Assembly: GCA_002726235.1 (NCBI GenBank)
Contig: PBSN01000008.1
Location: forward strand, 386,635 to 450,634
DNA length: 64,000 bases
Direction: 5' to 3'
Source of the DNA: Nitrospiraceae bacterium
GTDB lineage: Bacteria; Nitrospirota; Nitrospiria; Nitrospirales; UBA2166
Shown one piece after another: positions 15,001 to 30,000 of this stretch. Made by a program: the position numbers. The stretch's first letter is position 1, and each line of letters opens with the position of its first letter.

Positions 15001-18000
15001 ATTCACAAATCGTTGTGAAATCACTGCTTTTTATCATCTTTTCATCATCGGAAGTATCCATTCTAGGCACTTCTACCAAGCTTGAAATGCCGACAATTAC
15101 CACCCAGCAATAACAACACCACTTTGCATGTCCATAGCGTTTCCTTTATCATCAGTTATCATCAGTCGTGCGCCATCTCGCAAGACATTGGGGACGGTCG
15201 CACCTTTTCCTTTACAGCCCTTATCCTTACTCACAAACAACTAGGCACATCCCATTGAAAGATACGGATACAAGCACCTCTCTTCTCCATTATAGCCCCC
15301 TCCAGCAATACCTTGCAGAGGTGCGCCGATATCCACTTTTGACACGAGAGAAGGAAGCGCGGCTTATCAACGAGTACCGCGAATTTGGAAACCGCGACTC
15401 AGGAATTCAGCTAATTCTAGCAAATTTACGCTTGGTCGTCTCAATTGCCGGTCCCTACGCCCGTCCTGGAATGGAACAGCTTGACCTCATACAAGAAGGC
15501 AATATCGGATTGCTACAAGCCCTCAAACGCTATGACCCGTCAAAGGGCACGCGGTTTGGATCCTATGCGGCATGGTGGATTCGAGCCTATATCTTACGAT
15601 ATGTGGTCGCAAACTTTCGTTTGGTTAAACTTGGAACCACGCAGGATCAGCGAAAGCTCTTCTATAACTTGAAGAAAGAGCGGCAAAAGCTTGAATTGCA
15701 AGGGTTTGTTCCAGACACAAAACTTCTTGCCGACCGCTTGAGCGTGCGCGAGAGGGATATATGGCAAATGGAACAACGTCTCGGAAATCGGGAAATTCCA
15801 CTGCACCAACCACTCGGAAATGATTCCGAGCAGACGCTTCTCGACATCCTCCCTTCCGCAGAAGAGCAGATCGACAAAAAACTTGCGGAAAAGGAACTCA
15901 AGGCGTTGTTTCGGAAAACGTTACGCGAATTTACTGAAACTCTTAACGATCGAGAGCGCTTTATCATGACACATCGCATTCTCTCCGAATCTCCGGTCAC
16001 ACTGGAAGAGCTTGGAAAACGGTTTGGGGTAACAAAAGAAAGGAGCCGCCAATTGCAAAATAGGATTATCGAGAAACTTCGCGACTTTGCAAAAGACAGA
16101 ATTAAGGACTTTGGGCAACTCAGTTTTTAGGGTTTAGCCTACCTCTCAGGCACCAGTGAAATCACCATCGCTACCACCAGTTGATGGTCCTTGGGATCCT
16201 AAATAAATCATCCCATTCTCAATGTCATCCTTCACTTGCTGAACCCCAAAGTACATAAATTTTGCTTCGTCAGGACATTCGCGGCACAACAATAAACTCC
16301 GTCTGTCCGTTTTATGATGTCGCTGGTCTTGCTGAATCGTCTCAAGAAATTTTGATTCATCCATCTTGATACGAAGTCCACAAAAGTCGAGTAGCCGCTG
16401 TATTTCACACATTGGATCCTGAAAATAGTCATCATAGAAGGTCACGAACATTGGAATCCCAATGCTATGCCTAAATGCGATGTCCATATACTGCTTCCAA
16501 AGGACCATGCCGGACTGAATAGACCACCCATGCCGAGTTGCAAGTGAGTGAGCAACATCCACAGGATTCCGAATCACTAACACCAGACGCAATGCACTAA
16601 CCACACGTCTCCAAAATGGTAGCGTGAGCGTCGTTCGCGGATCTTTCCATCCCCAATGCAATGCCCCACGACGCCCGTATGCCCGATGGAGGATGGCGAC
16701 GGCCTCTTCCATTAGAAGGGGTATGTCCGACGCTCTTTCCCAGCCATTCTGCCATTGAGAAGGTTTCATCCAAGTGCCTCCTTGGGAAGCCAAAAGACGA
16801 TCGTTAAGATCCATAATTTCTCGATTTTCCCAAAAACCTAAAGGATTGTCGTCTTGGGGATCTAAGAATCGTTCTGGATCACCAAGATCAAGCCCCGCAC
16901 GATTGAGAAGACGAGCCACCATTGATGTTCCACTACGATGCATTCCAATGATGCAAATCGCAGATCCAGCAAGAGGTGTCATATGTCCACGGCCATGGCA
17001 GACAGAATCATCTGTTATCGGTTTACCTCTTCACGTGATTCGACCTTCTCCTTCACTCTCACGGAGATGTTGGTCTCCATATAAGCCAAACCGACAAAAC
17101 GCTTCGCACTGTGGACTTGAAAGACAAGAAGGTCTTTTCGCTTGTCCAACATACGAACATGGGTGCCAAGCTTCTCTGTCACACCACAGCTTAGAATATA
17201 GTTTCCTGCGTGAAACTGCGTAAGGATTGAAAAATCAATGGTCAAGACCGTACCTGCTACCTGAGGGTCTAAGGGAAAATCAGCGTTATCAGTGCTGATA
17301 CCGTATACGGCAACACCAACTGGAGTGTGGATTGCCATCCCTACACTCGGCGTTGTGATATCACGATGAAAGGAAATGGTCATTGCGATCGTAACCCAGC
17401 TCCCCCTCTGCACAGCCCGACACGGCATATTTTTGTGATCGTAAAGCTCAACCTCAAGGATCTCTGCAGCACGCGAACCAAACCTATATTCCTCTCCTTC
17501 TAAGGCTGGCTGAAACCCAACATCTTCCAAGCCACGTTCACCATCATCGAGCCAATATGCCCGAGACCCTTGTGTCAACTTCAAACGCTCGACATATTCT
17601 TCTTCCCGGCGAGACAACAACTCCCTATAGGAGTGAAAAACATTTACTGGAGGGCCTGCAGTAAGCATTGTTCCATGATCAAGTAAAATGGCTTCGTCAC
17701 ACACGGTTTGTATCACCTGCGCACTATGCGAAGCCAATACAATCGTTTTCCCATCCCTCTTCGCCTGTTCAAGACGCCGGAAACATCGCCGCTGAAACAT
17801 GCTATCACCAACTTGAAGTGCCTCGTCGAGAATGAAGATATCAGCATCAATGTTTGCCGCAATAGCAAACGCCAGTCTAATGTACATTCCAGATGAGTAG
17901 GTCTTGACCGGTTGATCAAGAAACGTACCAATTTCCGCAAAGTCCACGATCAGATCAAAGCGTTCTTCCATCTCAGCACGATCAATCCCAAGAATAGCGC

Positions 18001-27000: not shown

Positions 27001-30000
27001 TTTGACATATGCCACGCCGCATTGTATCACAGACACTTAAGTAACCTCACTGTGAGAATAGTCGCAACCACGGATAGTCGCAACGGTTTCCTCCTCATTC
27101 ATCAATATGCGGAAACCGAAGAAACGTCAGAATGAGATAGAAACATTTTTACAGATCATGATATCCAAACCACGCGGCAGAAGCAGCACACATCGATTCG
27201 ATACACTTTTTCTCTTCTATGCTCATCGCGCAACGCTCCTCCTCATTATTCCGGCTCACCAACGGTTTAACCGATCCAATCATCTGGTCTGGAAAAAACT
27301 GCTGGTAGATCCGCTGCAAATGAGGAAGAGGATCGACAATCAAATCTTCATATCTGATGATCGTATCGAAATCCGCACACATGATAATCTCTGTCGCCAA
27401 ATAGTTCCATAGGCCAGCTCGTCTGGTCGACTCATCTGCAACTGCAGCTAGCTTAAGCAGAATAGCCCTCTGTCGTTCATCGGCAAATTTAAACACCGCT
27501 GAATTGAGAATAGTCGCATGTCGAAGATGAGAAAAGGTCTTCTTCCAGGACCCAATGGTGTAATAGGGATGTCTCACCAGGATCACTATTTTCGCTCCTG
27601 GAAATACCCTGCGGATAGTCATCAATTGCGTCAAGTATGCGAGAGGGTTCTTCGTTCCTAACACAAAATCTTCGCGGGTTACCAGTGGGCGGTATAAACG
27701 ACGCTCCCCGTCATTCCAAGTATCGGAGACAACCATATTATCCACACACTGATTTTCAATCGCCTCGCCATTGGCGATCTTCGTTCGCCATGTCTTATAT
27801 GAAGAAAAAAATCCTTCTAATGATGGGGTTTCAAATAAAAAGGGAAGTTCACGAGGCTCGTTAAGAATGGCGAGATTTGGGAGATGATCGAGTAGATGTG
27901 CCAGTAAACTGGTCCCACTGCGTGGGATACCCGTAATAAAGAGCATTCGCTCAGATTCCTGAACAGTGAGGGTGAACGGTGGTGATGGATGCTGTTGACT
28001 CATGACATGTCTGGTAGACATCACGCTTCTTGCTCTACTTGTCTACCCTTCCCCCTCGCATAGCGACCGTTTTGAAAAGCCAGAATATGTGGCGCATGCC
28101 GCTCGATTATCTGCCACACTCGTTCCGCTTCAGAATGATCGTAGTACATACTCGAATTCCTTGATTTAAGTTTGGATACCGGTCTAGATATCTTGAATCC
28201 AATTGCTGCCACTGCGTTATCAGGATCAGTCATGAGGTCCTCGTAACATATGATCGCGTGAGCAGAAAGATGTGACATGACACGTCCGAAAATCCAATTG
28301 AGGATCTTCACCTGCCTCACGAGAAGATCCGGTTCATTGACTAGAATCCGCAGTTCGGACGAAATCCGTTCTGCAGAATGCAAATGGCCGCGTGAAATCG
28401 GAAGATCGAGAGATCTCCAGGAAAGTATCGTTGATACTGGATCACGTAGCATAGCAAGCACTGAAATATCTTCACGTGCGACAAGACGATCGATCACGGC
28501 AACCAGCGGCGCATTGCGTTTTACCAAAAGCTGGAACCGAGACTCTGGAATAGGGAGCAATTGCGTTTGCCATTGAAATCCCGACTCTACAACCCAACCA
28601 TCGGCGCTGTGTTCATGGCGAACAGCGTAATTCTCTGCAAGAGCTCCGGTATGCGGATCGATACGATTTTCAATTGGCGTTCCACGCAAAATGTCTTCAC
28701 GGATTTTCGCAATAAACGCGACCAAGCCAGCGACAAACTCCTCTGGTGCGCTTGACTGTTCAGTCAGTGCATCAATCTTCCGCGGTTCACTCAAACAGAT
28801 AACATCAGGCGGATTATGCAACAAGCTTGTCAGGAGTGAAGTACCGCTTCGCGGTGCACCCAAAAGAATGACGTTGTTTTTCACAGTCTAGCCATGGCTC
28901 CCTTAAAAAGGTTTTGGCAGTCGTTGGAAGTACCAATCAATTCTGCATTATATACATGTATACATGCCTCAGCATGAATCCACGGCAGAAACATGTCGTC
29001 CATACCAAAAACCATGTCTATCTTCTCGTTCTAAGTCAATCCTTCCGAAGATTCGTGATACACTTGATACTCACTGTCTGTCTCGACTTTGTAACAATGG
29101 CGTTCAAAAAGCTTTTCACACGGTTCTCACGACACAATACTGGCGATGTTTTCGTGTTCGATCAATCAGCATTATCAGCACTCGCCCACACGCACAAAAG
29201 CGCCTACGCCGAGGCAAAACCATTTCCTCACGTGGTGATCAATGATTTCTTACCGCCCTGTGTGGCAAACCGCGCTCTTGAGGAATTCCCTCCCCCCGAC
29301 GCTCCACTTTGGCTTGATTGGAGGAAACGTGACACAGTACACCAGCCGAAGAAACTCGGAATCGGTTCCGCAAAACGCCTAGCACAAGCATCTCCATCCC
29401 TACAACATATTCTATTCACATTGAATTCACACACCATGCTCGAATTCCTGGAGGACCTGACTGACATTCATGGCCTCATCCCAGACCCTCACTTTACTGG
29501 AGGAGGCCTACATCAAATTCTATCTGGGGGCAAGCTTGCGATTCACAGCGATTTTAATTTTGACCGCCGCCTAAAGCTCTATCGGCGAATTAATGTCCTG
29601 ATTTTTCTGAATAAAGATTGGAAGGAAGAATACGGAGGGCACTTAGAGCTTTGGGATCCTGCCATGACACACTGCATACGACGCGTCTTGCCCACATTTA
29701 ATCGATGCGTTATTTTCAACACCAATAAGGATTCTTGCCACGGTCATCCGGAACCGCTGAATACACCGAATGATATCACGCGAAAATCACTTGCCCTCTA
29801 TTATTACTCACGCGATTCCAACGAAGGTGATAACAGTATACGAAGTACAGATTGGCGCATTCGGCCAGGAGAAAATGGGTAACCACGCATGACAGGTATC
29901 GGACCTCATGACTAAACTGTCTGAGTCACACTCAGGGCTTGTGCAAGAATAATTTCATATTCCACAGCACCAATCCATACCAGTTGGCAACGTTGCTCAT

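What a model noticed while it worked through the whole genome (the two positions that open the first line are those of the whole stretch)
16146..28884. Seven sulfotransferases inside the O-antigen/LPS-core locus
Between the lipid A-core genes and a Wzm/Wzt ABC exporter lie seven sulfotransferase genes, two of which find only animal heparan-sulfate 6-O-sulfotransferases in Swiss-Prot, plus a 933-aa choice-of-anchor protein. I read this as synthesis of a heavily and diversely sulfated O-polysaccharide, a glycosaminoglycan look-alike on the cell surface. Together with 12 Sel1 and 5 ankyrin repeat proteins it hints that this small-genome Nitrospirales lives attached to a eukaryotic host or particle.
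Evidence so far: g00970, 973, 974, 975, 979, 980: Pfam Sulfotransfer_1/2/3; g00976 has no Pfam row and is counted on its Swiss-Prot hit alone; g00975 28% and g00976 27% to HS6ST1/HS6ST3 (E 5e-7); Wzt g00971, Wzm g00972, Wzy_C g00983, heptosyltransferases and lpx genes follow. PAPS supply: bifunctional sulfate adenylyltransferase/APS kinase g01532 and CysQ g00285. Sel1 count from pfam.tsv; ankyrin genes g00007, g00373, g00571, g01053, g01459.
(Added by a program. Inside this text positions count along the whole contig: contig position 386,635 is position 1 of the stretch shown here. "Call 12" and the like, gene names such as g00115 and contig names such as C1 are that model's own, and its searches are not shown. 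The text may have been shortened before it was handed on; [...] marks where a part breaks off. The agent that wrote the report below was given it as the finding of a first reader that could run no searches.)

Follow-up and report, generated by a model that had tools for sequence, protein, structure and literature searches.

The report
Seven-sulfotransferase O-antigen export operon
A small marine Nitrospirales bacterium carries one operon in which seven cytoplasmic sulfotransferases surround an O-antigen ABC exporter, so it most likely coats itself with a sulfated lipopolysaccharide sugar chain, and one of the enzymes belongs to a family built like known chain-ending enzymes.

Summary
Window 16146-28884 (minus strand) is one tightly packed 11-gene unit with seven sulfotransferase genes of four subfamilies. 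Six pass Pfam cut-offs. The seventh is a 58-61% identical paralogue of the sixth. The unit also encodes Wzm, Wzt with a C-terminal carbohydrate-binding module, and two exported proteins. It lies next to the genome's only O-antigen ligase and the core and lipid A genes.

Gene order is the same in the three same-genus genomes read across it. All seven enzymes keep the PAPS-binding motifs and lack membrane or signal segments. PAPS supply exists and appears dedicated to sulfation.

Two subfamilies sit next to Wzm/Wzt in unrelated phyla, sometimes fused to polymerising glycosyltransferases or to Wzt itself. This supports sulfation of a lipid-linked polysaccharide in the cytoplasm before ABC export.

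Not supported:
- The "glycosaminoglycan look-alike" reading. The likeness to HS6ST is family and fold level only.
- The host-association hint. Sel1 and ankyrin repeats are common across the order, and the locus is found in seawater and vent metagenomes.

New lead: the family of the sulfotransferase just downstream of wzt usually carries a long coiled coil and a conserved tail, like WbdD-type chain terminators. Sulfate may therefore be an unrecognised O-antigen cap. The window's own copy lacks the coiled coil.

The parts
16146..16982 (-). ST1: a 278-aa soluble sulfotransferase directly downstream of wzt. It is a short form of a widespread family whose long forms carry a coiled coil and a conserved C-terminal tail.
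   Evidence: Pfam Sulfotransfer_3 5e-14. 2466 relatives. 91 of the 120 listed relatives have a C-terminal extension of 60 aa or more. No TM segment.
17015..18334 (-). Wzt: the ATPase of the O-antigen ABC exporter, with a C-terminal carbohydrate-binding module.
   Evidence: ABC_tran 7e-23 and Wzt_C 3.8e-27. Best PDB matches 8dku/7k2t/6amx, E 1e-72. The module alone matches 2r5o at 5e-7 and 5hno at 5e-4.
18383..19204 (-). Wzm: the ABC-2 permease of the exporter.
   Evidence: ABC2_membrane 7e-17. Five hydrophobic segments.
19211..20032 (-). ST2: sulfotransferase, paralogue of ST3. Its 5' motif reads RSGHS.
   Evidence: Sulfotransfer_3 2e-12. Alignment A1.
20082..20936 (-). ST3: sulfotransferase. 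Nearest solved relatives are the CurM/olefin-synthase sulfotransferases and TPST.
   Evidence: Sulfotransfer_3 2e-12 and Sulfotransfer_1 5e-10. PDB 4gox 8e-6.
20933..21745 (-). ST4: Sulfotransfer_2-type carbohydrate sulfotransferase. The ORF runs to 21838; the likely start gives 270 aa.
   Evidence: Sulfotransfer_2 at 26 bits against a cut-off of 22. AF2 model pLDDT 90.6. Foldseek top hits HS6ST3 and HS2ST. The KTAGT, GH and RxP...S positions are invariant or near-invariant in the family.
21938..22756 (-). ST5: paralogue of ST4, below Pfam cut-offs.
   Evidence: A stop codon separates it from ST4.
22789..24195 (-). Exported GSDH-type beta-propeller plus a CarboxypepD_reg domain. Its role in the system is unknown.
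   Evidence: GSDH 2e-52. N-terminal hydrophobic segment. Duplicated in G002.
24235..27036 (-). A 933-aa exported surface-type protein with choice-of-anchor X repeats. Role unknown.
   Evidence: NF041940 2.4e-12. N-terminal hydrophobic segment. The protein atlas was uninformative.
27149..28024 (-). ST6: sulfotransferase with weak NoeE/TPST likeness. Its family is narrow.
   Evidence: Sulfotransfer_3 5e-18. NoeE model 9e-11, far below its cut-off. 27 relatives.
28021..28884 (-). ST7: sulfotransferase, a distant paralogue of ST6 (25-27% identity).
   Evidence: Sulfotransfer_3 1.3e-7 at 32.5 bits against a cut-off of 27..
28914..29882 (+). Divergently transcribed 2OG-Fe(II) oxygenase, conserved beside the operon in the genus. 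Role unknown.
   Evidence: 2OG-FeII_Oxy_3 3e-16. Synteny.
30084..31244 (+). Glycosyltransferase with a GT1/GT4-type C-terminal half.
   Evidence: Glycos_transf_1 6e-8. Synteny.
31207..32523 (-). O-antigen ligase-type protein (WaaL). It is the only Wzy_C protein found in the assembly.
   Evidence: Wzy_C 2e-16. One match in the genome. Ten hydrophobic segments.
32584..41470 (-). Core oligosaccharide genes: KdsC, heptosyltransferase III, two GT4, two GT2, a heptosyltransferase and a WaaF-GmhB fusion. Some of the GT2/GT4 genes could instead build the exported polymer.

Best explanation
The operon makes a sulfated O-polysaccharide by the ABC-transporter-dependent route.

Steps shown:
- Seven soluble, PAPS-type sulfotransferases of four subfamilies are encoded with Wzm and a module-bearing Wzt in one conserved unit.
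- That unit lies beside the only O-antigen ligase and the core and lipid A genes.
- The genome makes PAPS.

Steps inferred:
1. A glycan is built on undecaprenyl phosphate at the cytoplasmic face. The glycosyltransferases lie outside the operon. Candidates are the GT2/GT4 genes at 34146-38475 and a genus-specific 916-aa double GT4 with an internal coiled coil on contig C12. The sugars are possibly rhamnose or mannose.
2. The seven enzymes put sulfate on different hydroxyls or residues while the chain is still in the cytoplasm.
3. Wzt's binding module checks the non-reducing end, and Wzm/Wzt flips the chain.
4. WaaL joins it to lipid A-core, and Lpt carries it to the surface.

The outcome would be a strongly anionic cell coat in a marine or vent-plume bacterium.
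For: - Operon anatomy and Pfam assignments.
- All seven keep the 5' phosphosulfate loop (RSGTS or KTAGTS) and the R-x-P 3' motif. None has a TM or signal segment, while the two embedded non-enzymes do.
- The gene order is the same in G001, G004 and G002 at 54-89% amino-acid identity.
- Wzt matches solved O-antigen exporters at E 1e-72 and has a Wzt_C module.
- PAPS supply: a 579-aa ATP sulfurylase-APS kinase sits in an operon with manC, rmlA, rmlB and rmlD. The assimilatory reductase has the CC...CxxC pattern of APS reductases (the meaning of the pattern is recalled). PAPS is therefore probably made for sulfation only.
- ST1 family: 15 of 80 loci from many phyla have Wzm plus Wzt within 8 kb. 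In 4 of the 9 loci annotated, the sulfotransferase domain is fused to glycosyltransferase modules right after wzt.
- ST4 family: 12 of 80 metagenome loci have a Wzt, although only 35 of the 80 are 8 kb or longer. Examples include clusters of Wzm, Wzt, several sulfotransferases and glycosyltransferases, and one Wzt-module-sulfotransferase fusion.
- A genome of another family of the same order has cysC-wzm-wzt-sulfotransferase.
- The ST4 model superposes best on polysaccharide O-sulfotransferases.
Against: - No polymerising glycosyltransferase, nucleotide-sugar gene or initiating transferase lies inside the operon, so the link to a particular polymer is indirect.
- ST2/3 and ST6/7 were not tested for Wzm/Wzt association elsewhere.
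- 65 of the 80 ST1-family loci and 68 of the 80 ST4-family loci showed no Wzt in the DNA fetched.
- Two exported proteins of unknown role sit inside the operon.
- The Wzy_C protein scores better against an exosortase-associated O-glycosylation ligase model (7.5e-18) than against RfaL (7.5e-12), both below cut-off.
- No chemistry exists for this organism.
Confidence: 0.7

Rival explanations
1. The sulfated glycan is transferred to surface proteins rather than to lipid A-core. Targets could include the 933-aa choice-of-anchor X protein or the GSDH protein encoded inside the operon. The Wzy_C protein would then act as an O-oligosaccharyltransferase, as in S-layer glycosylation systems that also use Wzm/Wzt.
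For: - Two exported proteins are conserved inside the operon.
- The Wzy_C protein scores higher on an O-glycosylation ligase model than on RfaL.
- A distant sulfotransferase/Wzm/Wzt cluster (L099) sits beside a 1569-aa DUF11 surface protein.
Against: - The Wzy_C gene lies among KdsC and heptosyltransferase genes and is the only one in the assembly.
- In G002 the 933-aa gene is replaced by a second GSDH gene, so it is dispensable for the unit.
Confidence: 0.12
2. The sulfotransferases modify the core oligosaccharide or lipid A, as LpsS does in Sinorhizobium (recalled). Wzm/Wzt would export an unsulfated polymer.
For: The operon adjoins the core and lipid A genes.
Against: - The sulfotransferases flank wzm/wzt with gaps of 6-49 nt.
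- ST1- and ST4-type relatives elsewhere sit with Wzm/Wzt and polymerising glycosyltransferases, or are fused to them.
- Seven enzymes are many for a core.
Confidence: 0.1
3. The enzymes sulfate peptides or small molecules, in the manner of TPST/RaxST or CurM. The ABC-2 pump would export that product.
For: ST2, ST3 and ST6 find TPST and CurM sulfotransferases as their nearest solved relatives.
Against: - Those matches are weak (E 1e-4 to 1e-5) and cover mostly the PAPS loop.
- The pump's ATPase is an O-antigen Wzt with a carbohydrate-binding module.
- No peptide precursor or PKS genes lie in the locus.
Confidence: 0.04

Closest known systems
ABC-transporter-dependent O-antigen assembly with a capped chain (E. 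coli O9a/O8 WbdA-WbdD-Wzm-Wzt; K. pneumoniae O12 WbbB; Aquifex aeolicus WzmWzt)
   Same: - Wzm plus a Wzt carrying a C-terminal binding module.
- Modification in the cytoplasm before export, with a ligase nearby.
- A modifying enzyme gene directly after wzt.
- Relatives of that enzyme have a catalytic domain, a coiled coil and a C-terminal tail, or are fused ahead of polymerase modules.
   Different: - The modifying enzymes are sulfotransferases. The caps named in the passages read are methyl, (methyl)phosphate and Kdo, plus a terminal pyruvate in K. pneumoniae O1 that is not needed for export.
- The window's ST1 has no coiled coil.
- The polymerase genes are not in the operon.
Sulfated capsular polysaccharide clusters of marine bacteria (Cobetia marina KMM 1449, Vibrio sp. 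KMM 8419)
   Same: Sulfotransferase genes, PAPS genes and an ABC exporter are combined for a surface polysaccharide. The Cobetia product contains 2-O-sulfated rhamnose (PMC11766843, abstract and passages).
   Different: - Those are KpsMTED group-III capsule systems on a Kdo-lipid primer, and few sulfotransferases are described in the passages read.
- Here the system is Wzm/Wzt with a binding module, WaaL and seven sulfotransferases.
- Here the PAPS genes lie elsewhere in the genome.
Animal heparan sulfate 6-O- and 2-O-sulfotransferases (HS6ST, HS2ST; Pfam Sulfotransfer_2)
   Same: ST4/ST5 share the fold, the PAPS loop, the 3' R-x-P...S motif and a conserved His.
   Different: - 15-23% identity and TM 0.55-0.59.
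- No Golgi membrane anchor.
- No heparosan genes in the locus.
- These are simply the solved members of the family.
Aeromonas salmonicida O-antigen cluster ORF19
   Same: A sulfotransferase-domain gene lies directly after wzt in an ABC-dependent O-antigen cluster, next to a WbbB-type protein (PMC4483657, passages).
   Different: A single 216-aa gene. The authors found no sulfate in the published O-antigen structure and left it unexplained.

Membership tests
PAPS-dependent sulfotransferases (Pfam Sulfotransfer_1/2/3) | Match to a family model above the curated cut-off | tested here: met
   6 of 7 are above cut-off. ST5 is below all cut-offs but matches the ST4-family profile at 1.4e-93.
PAPS-dependent sulfotransferases (Pfam Sulfotransfer_1/2/3) | 5' phosphosulfate-binding loop and 3' phosphate-binding R-x-P motif (motif names recalled) | tested here: met
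   G, S, R and P are invariant over the seven in alignment A1. ST2 has H in place of T in the loop.
PAPS-dependent sulfotransferases (Pfam Sulfotransfer_1/2/3) | Sulfate transfer from PAPS to an acceptor | not testable with these tools
   This needs an enzyme assay.
ABC-transporter-dependent O-antigen pathway | Wzm permease and Wzt ATPase | tested here: met
ABC-transporter-dependent O-antigen pathway | Polymerising glycosyltransferases and an initiating phosphoglycosyl transferase | tested here: inconclusive
   None lie in the operon. Candidates elsewhere are GT2/GT4 at 34146-38475, a WbaP-like gene, three GT4 genes and a 916-aa double GT4 on C12, and a WecA-family gene on C2.
ABC-transporter-dependent O-antigen pathway | Ligase to lipid A-core | tested here: met
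   Wzy_C protein at 31207-32523, the only one in the assembly. Ligase rather than polymerase is inferred from its context.
WbdD/WbbB-type chain terminators | Coiled-coil molecular ruler next to the catalytic domain | tested here: not met
   The window's ST1 (278 aa) and its 8 clade orthologues end 16-45 aa after the domain. Among all 120 listed relatives, 91 have an extension of 60 aa or more. The model of P0106 gives one helix over residues 298-483.
WbdD/WbbB-type chain terminators | Encoded with a Wzt that carries a cap-binding module | tested here: met
   ST1 lies 32 nt downstream of a wzt with Wzt_C. The same arrangement occurs in L018, L042, L057, L062 and L176.
WbdD/WbbB-type chain terminators | Adds a group to the non-reducing end that stops growth and is needed for export | not testable with these tools
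   This needs chemistry and genetics.
Heparan sulfate 6-O-sulfotransferases | Close sequence kinship and a type II membrane anchor | tested here: not met
   22-23% identity and TM 0.59. No hydrophobic segment.
Glycosaminoglycan-like polymer | Hexosamine-uronic acid synthase of the heparosan or chondroitin type | tested here: inconclusive
   None in the window. Two UDP-sugar dehydrogenase genes exist elsewhere. No genome-wide search for such synthases was made.

The most novel reading that the evidence does not exclude
Sulfate is an unrecognised class of O-antigen chain-terminating cap.

The widespread ST1 family would be the sulfotransferase counterpart of WbdD. Its long forms have an N-terminal catalytic domain, a coiled-coil ruler of variable length and a conserved basic-aromatic C-terminal tail. 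The family is encoded right after module-bearing wzt genes in several phyla. It is sometimes fused ahead of polymerase modules as in WbbB, and in one case to Wzt itself.

In this genus the Wzt module would read a terminal sulfate put on by the ruler-less ST1. The coiled coil and tail motif would have moved to the 916-aa double glycosyltransferase on contig C12. The other six enzymes would decorate the chain.
Probability: 0.3. Interest if true: 0.8.

Novelty: new variant of a known kind. Interest (0 to 1): 0.62.

Why it matters
Sulfated surface polysaccharides are known from a few cultured marine bacteria, but their genetics are barely worked out. No case is described in which sulfation is wired into the Wzm/Wzt O-antigen pathway.

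Here a 1.9-Mb genome spends seven genes and its PAPS pathway on it. The same building blocks recur in uncultured Chloroflexota, Verrucomicrobiota, Planctomycetota, Nitrospirota, candidate phyla and a Nitrosovibrio isolate.

If the ST1 family terminates chains with sulfate, that adds a fourth chemical class of cap to a textbook mechanism. It also gives a set of small soluble carbohydrate sulfotransferases with defined positions, which would be useful for making sulfated glycans. For the organism, a dense sulfate coat could affect metal binding, phage and grazer recognition and particle interactions in seawater and vent plumes.

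Tried and rejected
- Promoter and terminator scan of 14800-33200: fewer promoter-like sites than in shuffles (14 against 27.5) and no convincing terminator inside the operon. It is uninformative beyond being compatible with one transcription unit.
- My first coiled-coil score was not specific: 84 of 91 extensions passed, but so did 51 of 91 shuffled ones. 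A heptad-periodicity test was weaker than hoped. 35 of 91 extensions passed against 17 of 120 catalytic domains. The coiled-coil claim therefore rests mainly on the sequences read and one AF2 model.
- Protein atlas search for the 933-aa protein: best feature score 0.75 and TM 0.24 or less. No usable lead.
- The two 2OG oxygenases (window and contig C2) are barely alike, E 0.001 over 17 residues.
- PF13469 hits in two other families of the order (G009, G018) lie in unrelated contexts. No window protein matched those regions except a generic ABC ATPase.
- RNA: contigs from two metatranscriptome libraries of one vent sample match pieces of the locus at 99% or more. DNA carry-over cannot be excluded, and parts without cover say nothing. 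I do not count this as proof of expression.
- Runs with small shares of the words were not used for habitat.
- No complex prediction was run.

Full report
**What is there.** Window 16146-28884 holds eleven genes on the minus strand with gaps of -4 to 192 nt. In order of transcription they are:
- ST7 and ST6;
- a 933-aa choice-of-anchor X protein;
- a 468-aa GSDH beta-propeller protein;
- ST5, ST4, ST3 and ST2;
- Wzm and Wzt;
- ST1.

Pfam puts ST1, ST2, ST3, ST6 and ST7 in Sulfotransfer_3/1 and ST4 in Sulfotransfer_2, all above the curated cut-offs. ST5 is below every cut-off. It is nevertheless a clear paralogue of ST4: 58-61% identity to ST4 orthologues and 1.4e-93 against a profile of the ST4 family. 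A stop codon separates ST5 from ST4. ST4 probably starts at 21745, because a 270-aa database record is 100% identical.

Wzt carries ABC_tran plus a Wzt_C domain (3.8e-27), and Wzm is an ABC-2 permease. On the other strand follow a 2OG-Fe(II) oxygenase and a glycosyltransferase. Then, again on the minus strand, come:
- the only Wzy_C (ligase-type) gene of the assembly;
- KdsC, three heptosyltransferases, two GT4 and two GT2;
- LpxK, KdtA, MsbA, LpxB, LpxI, LpxA, Skp and BamA.

Upstream of the operon lie a sigma-70 gene and a cytochrome c/SoxYZ cluster.

**Are the enzymes intact, and where do they work?** The seven align with invariant G and S in the 5' loop (RSGTS in ST1, 3, 6 and 7; RSGHS in ST2; KTAGTS in ST4 and 5) and an invariant R-x-P further on. 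The motif names are recalled from the sulfotransferase literature. In 37 members of the ST4 family, the loop residues H-I-P-K-T-A-G, the G-H pair, R85-x-P87 and S93 are all invariant or nearly so. None of the seven has a hydrophobic segment. The GSDH and choice-of-anchor proteins each start with one. The enzymes are thus cytoplasmic, which is where PAPS is.

**PAPS supply.** A 579-aa PUA/ATP-sulfurylase/APS-kinase protein is encoded on contig C18. Its operon reads manC, an rmlA-type nucleotidyltransferase, rmlB, rmlD, sat/cysC, carA, carB. The assimilatory reductase on C7 has a CC pair and a CxxC near its end. From memory, that pattern marks APS rather than PAPS reductases. If so, PAPS is not needed for assimilation and is made for sulfation. 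Two Inositol_P-family genes could serve as CysQ. No other sulfotransferase gene was found in the assembly, apart from one 17-bit match on contig C2.

**Conservation.** All four other genomes of the genus have clustered PF13469 matches. I read three of them.
- G001 and G004 show the same gene order from the Sox cytochromes through the ligase, at 54-89% amino-acid identity.
- G002 has one ST2/3-type gene instead of two, and a second GSDH gene in place of the 933-aa gene. Its contig ends before ST1.
- Outside the genus, 12 of 36 genomes of the order have a PF13469 match. The two regions I read (G009, G018) are unrelated in content.
- The ST4/5 and ST6/7 families are narrow, with 83 and 27 relatives. 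Identity falls below 40% outside the clade.
- ST1 belongs to a large family of 2466 relatives.

**What the enzymes act on.** No glycosyltransferase lies inside the operon, so I looked at relatives elsewhere.

For ST1, a pattern scan of one genome per species gave 80 loci from many phyla.
- 15 of the 80 have both Wzm and Wzt within 8 kb, and 18 have a Wzt-like hit.
- A random gene would meet a Wzt in roughly 1-2% of such stretches, given 0-4 Wzt matches per 2-4 Mb genome. This background figure is my estimate.
- I annotated 9 of the 15. In 5 of these, Wzt has a Wzt_C module (L018, L029, L042, L057, L062).
- In 4, the ST1 domain is the N-terminal part of a large protein that continues with glycosyltransferase modules directly after wzt:
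  - L042: ST-WbsX-RgpF-NKWYS, 1331 aa, followed by rmlB, rmlA and rmlD.
  - L050: ST-GT2-GT4.
  - L029: ST-GT4, preceded by CysQ and ATP sulfurylase.
  - L057 (Nitrosovibrio sp. Nv4): two GT4 modules. Here the sulfotransferase part was seen by tblastn, not by Pfam at 1e-4.

For ST4, a scan of metagenome contigs gave 80 loci.
- Only 35 of them are 8 kb or longer. 12 have a Wzt and 7 have both Wzm and Wzt. One of the 12 (L096) is the same genus.
- In the four I annotated:
  - L099 has two Sulfotransfer_2 genes, a methyltransferase, Wzm and a module-bearing Wzt, then an ST1-type match.
  - L102 has a ligase-type gene, a WbaP-type gene, Wzm, Wzt and two 590-aa Sulfotransfer_2 fusion proteins.
  - L152 has Wzm, Wzt, two sulfotransferases and eight glycosyltransferases.
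  - L161 encodes a single 693-aa Wzt-Wzt_C-sulfotransferase protein.
- In G035, a genome of another family of the same order, the order is cysC, wzm, wzt (with Wzt_C), then a 686-aa sulfotransferase.

These contexts tie two of the four subfamilies to lipid-linked glycans of the ABC route. ST2/3 and ST6/7 were not tested in this way.

**The polymer.** The genome has two other glycan loci.
- Contig C2 carries a WbpM-type dehydratase, a WecA-family transferase, GT2/GT4 genes and NeuB/cytidylyltransferase/aminotransferase genes for a nonulosonic acid.
- Contig C12 carries a WbaP-type transferase, three GT4 genes, a methyltransferase and a 916-aa protein with two GT4 modules.
- The 916-aa protein is found in all four genus relatives and in none of 36 other genomes of the order at E 1e-20 or better. 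Neither locus was seen to contain a Wzm/Wzt of its own in the stretches annotated. The window's Wzt was the only match in the assembly at E 1e-30 or better, and PF01061 gave three further ABC-2 permease matches elsewhere that I did not follow up.

With the manC/rml/PAPS operon, this suggests a rhamnose- or mannose-based chain made elsewhere and exported here. This is inference, not a result.

**The HS6ST likeness.** ST4 and ST5 find only zebrafish HS6ST3 among solved structures by sequence (E 2e-5 and 1e-4). A confident model of ST4 (pLDDT 90.6) superposes best on HS6ST3 (TM 0.59, 22-23% identity) and HS2ST (TM 0.55-0.58), then on a bacterial sulfotransferase and the 3-O-sulfotransferases. This is membership of the Sulfotransfer_2 carbohydrate-sulfotransferase fold. 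It is not kinship with the animal enzymes, and nothing in the locus points to a hexosamine-uronic acid backbone. Two UDP-sugar dehydrogenase genes lie elsewhere.

In systems where Wzt has a binding module, the module binds a cap at the non-reducing end. The cap is added by a terminator that contains a coiled-coil ruler. The caps named in the passages I read are methyl, (methyl)phosphate and Kdo, plus a non-essential pyruvate (PMC9445017 and PMC11231755, passages).

The operon has no methyltransferase, kinase or Kdo transferase. The gene right after wzt is ST1, the place wbdD holds in E. coli O9a (recalled).
- Of the 120 listed ST1 relatives, 91 extend 60 aa or more beyond the catalytic domain.
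- The extensions I read are heptad-like repeats ending in a basic-aromatic tail.
- An AF2 model of one (P0106, 484 aa, 24-sequence alignment, pLDDT 79.9) gives a globular domain followed by one unbroken helix over residues 298-483.
- A tail motif, Y[RK]xx[ILVF][KR]P[LFI], occurs in 39 of 120 relatives, always 10-27 residues from the end. In the 1800 ORFs of this genome it occurs twice, against 0.35 expected from shuffles. One occurrence lies in the C12 double GT4, right after its own coiled-coil-like linker. I defined this motif after seeing both, so it is a lead only.
- The 686-aa sulfotransferase of G035 also ends in a long repeat-rich helical region and an amphipathic tail.
- No paper in the searchable library holds sulfotransferase, coiled-coil and WbdD together (0 hits). 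A second search found only the Aeromonas salmonicida paper, which notes an unexplained sulfotransferase gene after wzt.

Points against applying this to the window:
- Its ST1 and the eight closest orthologues are short and have no coiled coil.
- Some ST1-linked Wzt proteins elsewhere lack the module (L050 by Pfam; by length also L026, L063 and L093).
- The methyltransferase beside the C12 polymerase could supply a methyl cap.

The Wzt module's best solved relatives are 2r5o (5e-7) and 5hno (5e-4). From memory, these bind a phosphomethyl and a Kdo cap, both anionic. That is compatible with the cap idea but proves nothing.

**Host association.** Sel1 matches occur in 38 of 41 genomes of the order, and ankyrin matches in 32 of 41. 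G000 has 41 and 11. Other families reach 61 and 19. The stretch 16146-26000 is held by runs of 13 studies labelled marine, seawater, marine plankton or hydrothermal vent metagenome. None carries a host label, and one run may be the source. It does not contain the words sulfotransferase or lipopolysaccharide. Close homologues are named Nitrospirales bacterium by their source. I did not place the genome in a family myself.

**Expression.** Contigs from two metatranscriptome libraries of one vent sample match parts of wzt/wzm, ST2, ST3, ST4, the GSDH gene, the 933-aa gene, ST7 and the oxygenase at 99% or more. The tool warns that DNA can be present in such libraries, so this is only a hint.

**Verdict.** The glycosaminoglycan and host readings are not supported. 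It is a new variant of a known kind. The more interesting product of the analysis is the WbdD-like build of the ST1 family, which makes 'sulfate as an O-antigen cap' a testable idea.

Noticed in passing
G000 contig C18:7299-15026 (L015): The bifunctional ATP sulfurylase/APS kinase gene sits in one minus-strand row with manC, an rmlA-type gene, rmlB and rmlD, followed by carA and carB. Activated sulfate and activated mannose/rhamnose are therefore genomically linked.
   Followed up: partly
G000 contig C12:84595-93798 (L012): A WbaP-type transferase, three GT4 genes, a methyltransferase and a genus-specific 916-aa double GT4. The linker of the double GT4 looks like a coiled coil and ends in the tail motif of the ST1 family (YRVVLKPL). 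It is a possible polymerase for the exported chain.
   Followed up: partly
G000 contig C2:77029-119010 (L009-L011): A second large glycan locus: a WbpM-type dehydratase, a WecA-family transferase, a GT4-epimerase fusion, an asparagine synthase-type amidotransferase, NeuB, two cytidylyltransferases and DegT. This suggests a nonulosonic-acid-containing polymer. It also holds a 359-aa protein with a 17-bit Sulfotransfer_3 match.
   Followed up: partly
L161:3194-5275 (metagenome contig): A single 693-aa ORF joins the Wzt ATPase, the Wzt_C module and a sulfotransferase domain. A Sulfotransfer_2 gene and an FkbM methyltransferase follow it.
   Followed up: no
L176:531-5585 (G035, another family of the order): The row cysC, wzm, wzt (with module), then a 686-aa sulfotransferase ending in tandem helical repeats and an amphipathic tail. 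This is the same logic as the window, built from a different sulfotransferase type.
   Followed up: partly
window 8475-14827: A row of c-type cytochromes (SoxA/TsdA-like, cbb3/FixO-like), SoxY and SoxZ, with a BNR/sialidase-like beta-propeller gene (10769-12103) in the middle. No other Sox genes were seen in the window.
   Followed up: no
window 39842-41470: A 542-aa fusion of heptosyltransferase II (WaaF-type) with the heptose-bisphosphate phosphatase GmhB.
   Followed up: no
window 19000-23000: G+C dips to 0.43-0.45 over ST2-ST5, against 0.47-0.50 around it. This is usual for surface-polysaccharide genes.
   Followed up: no
L006:5121-7914 (G002): In one species of the genus the 933-aa surface protein gene is replaced by a second copy of the GSDH-type gene (57% and 77% identity to the window's).
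   Followed up: no
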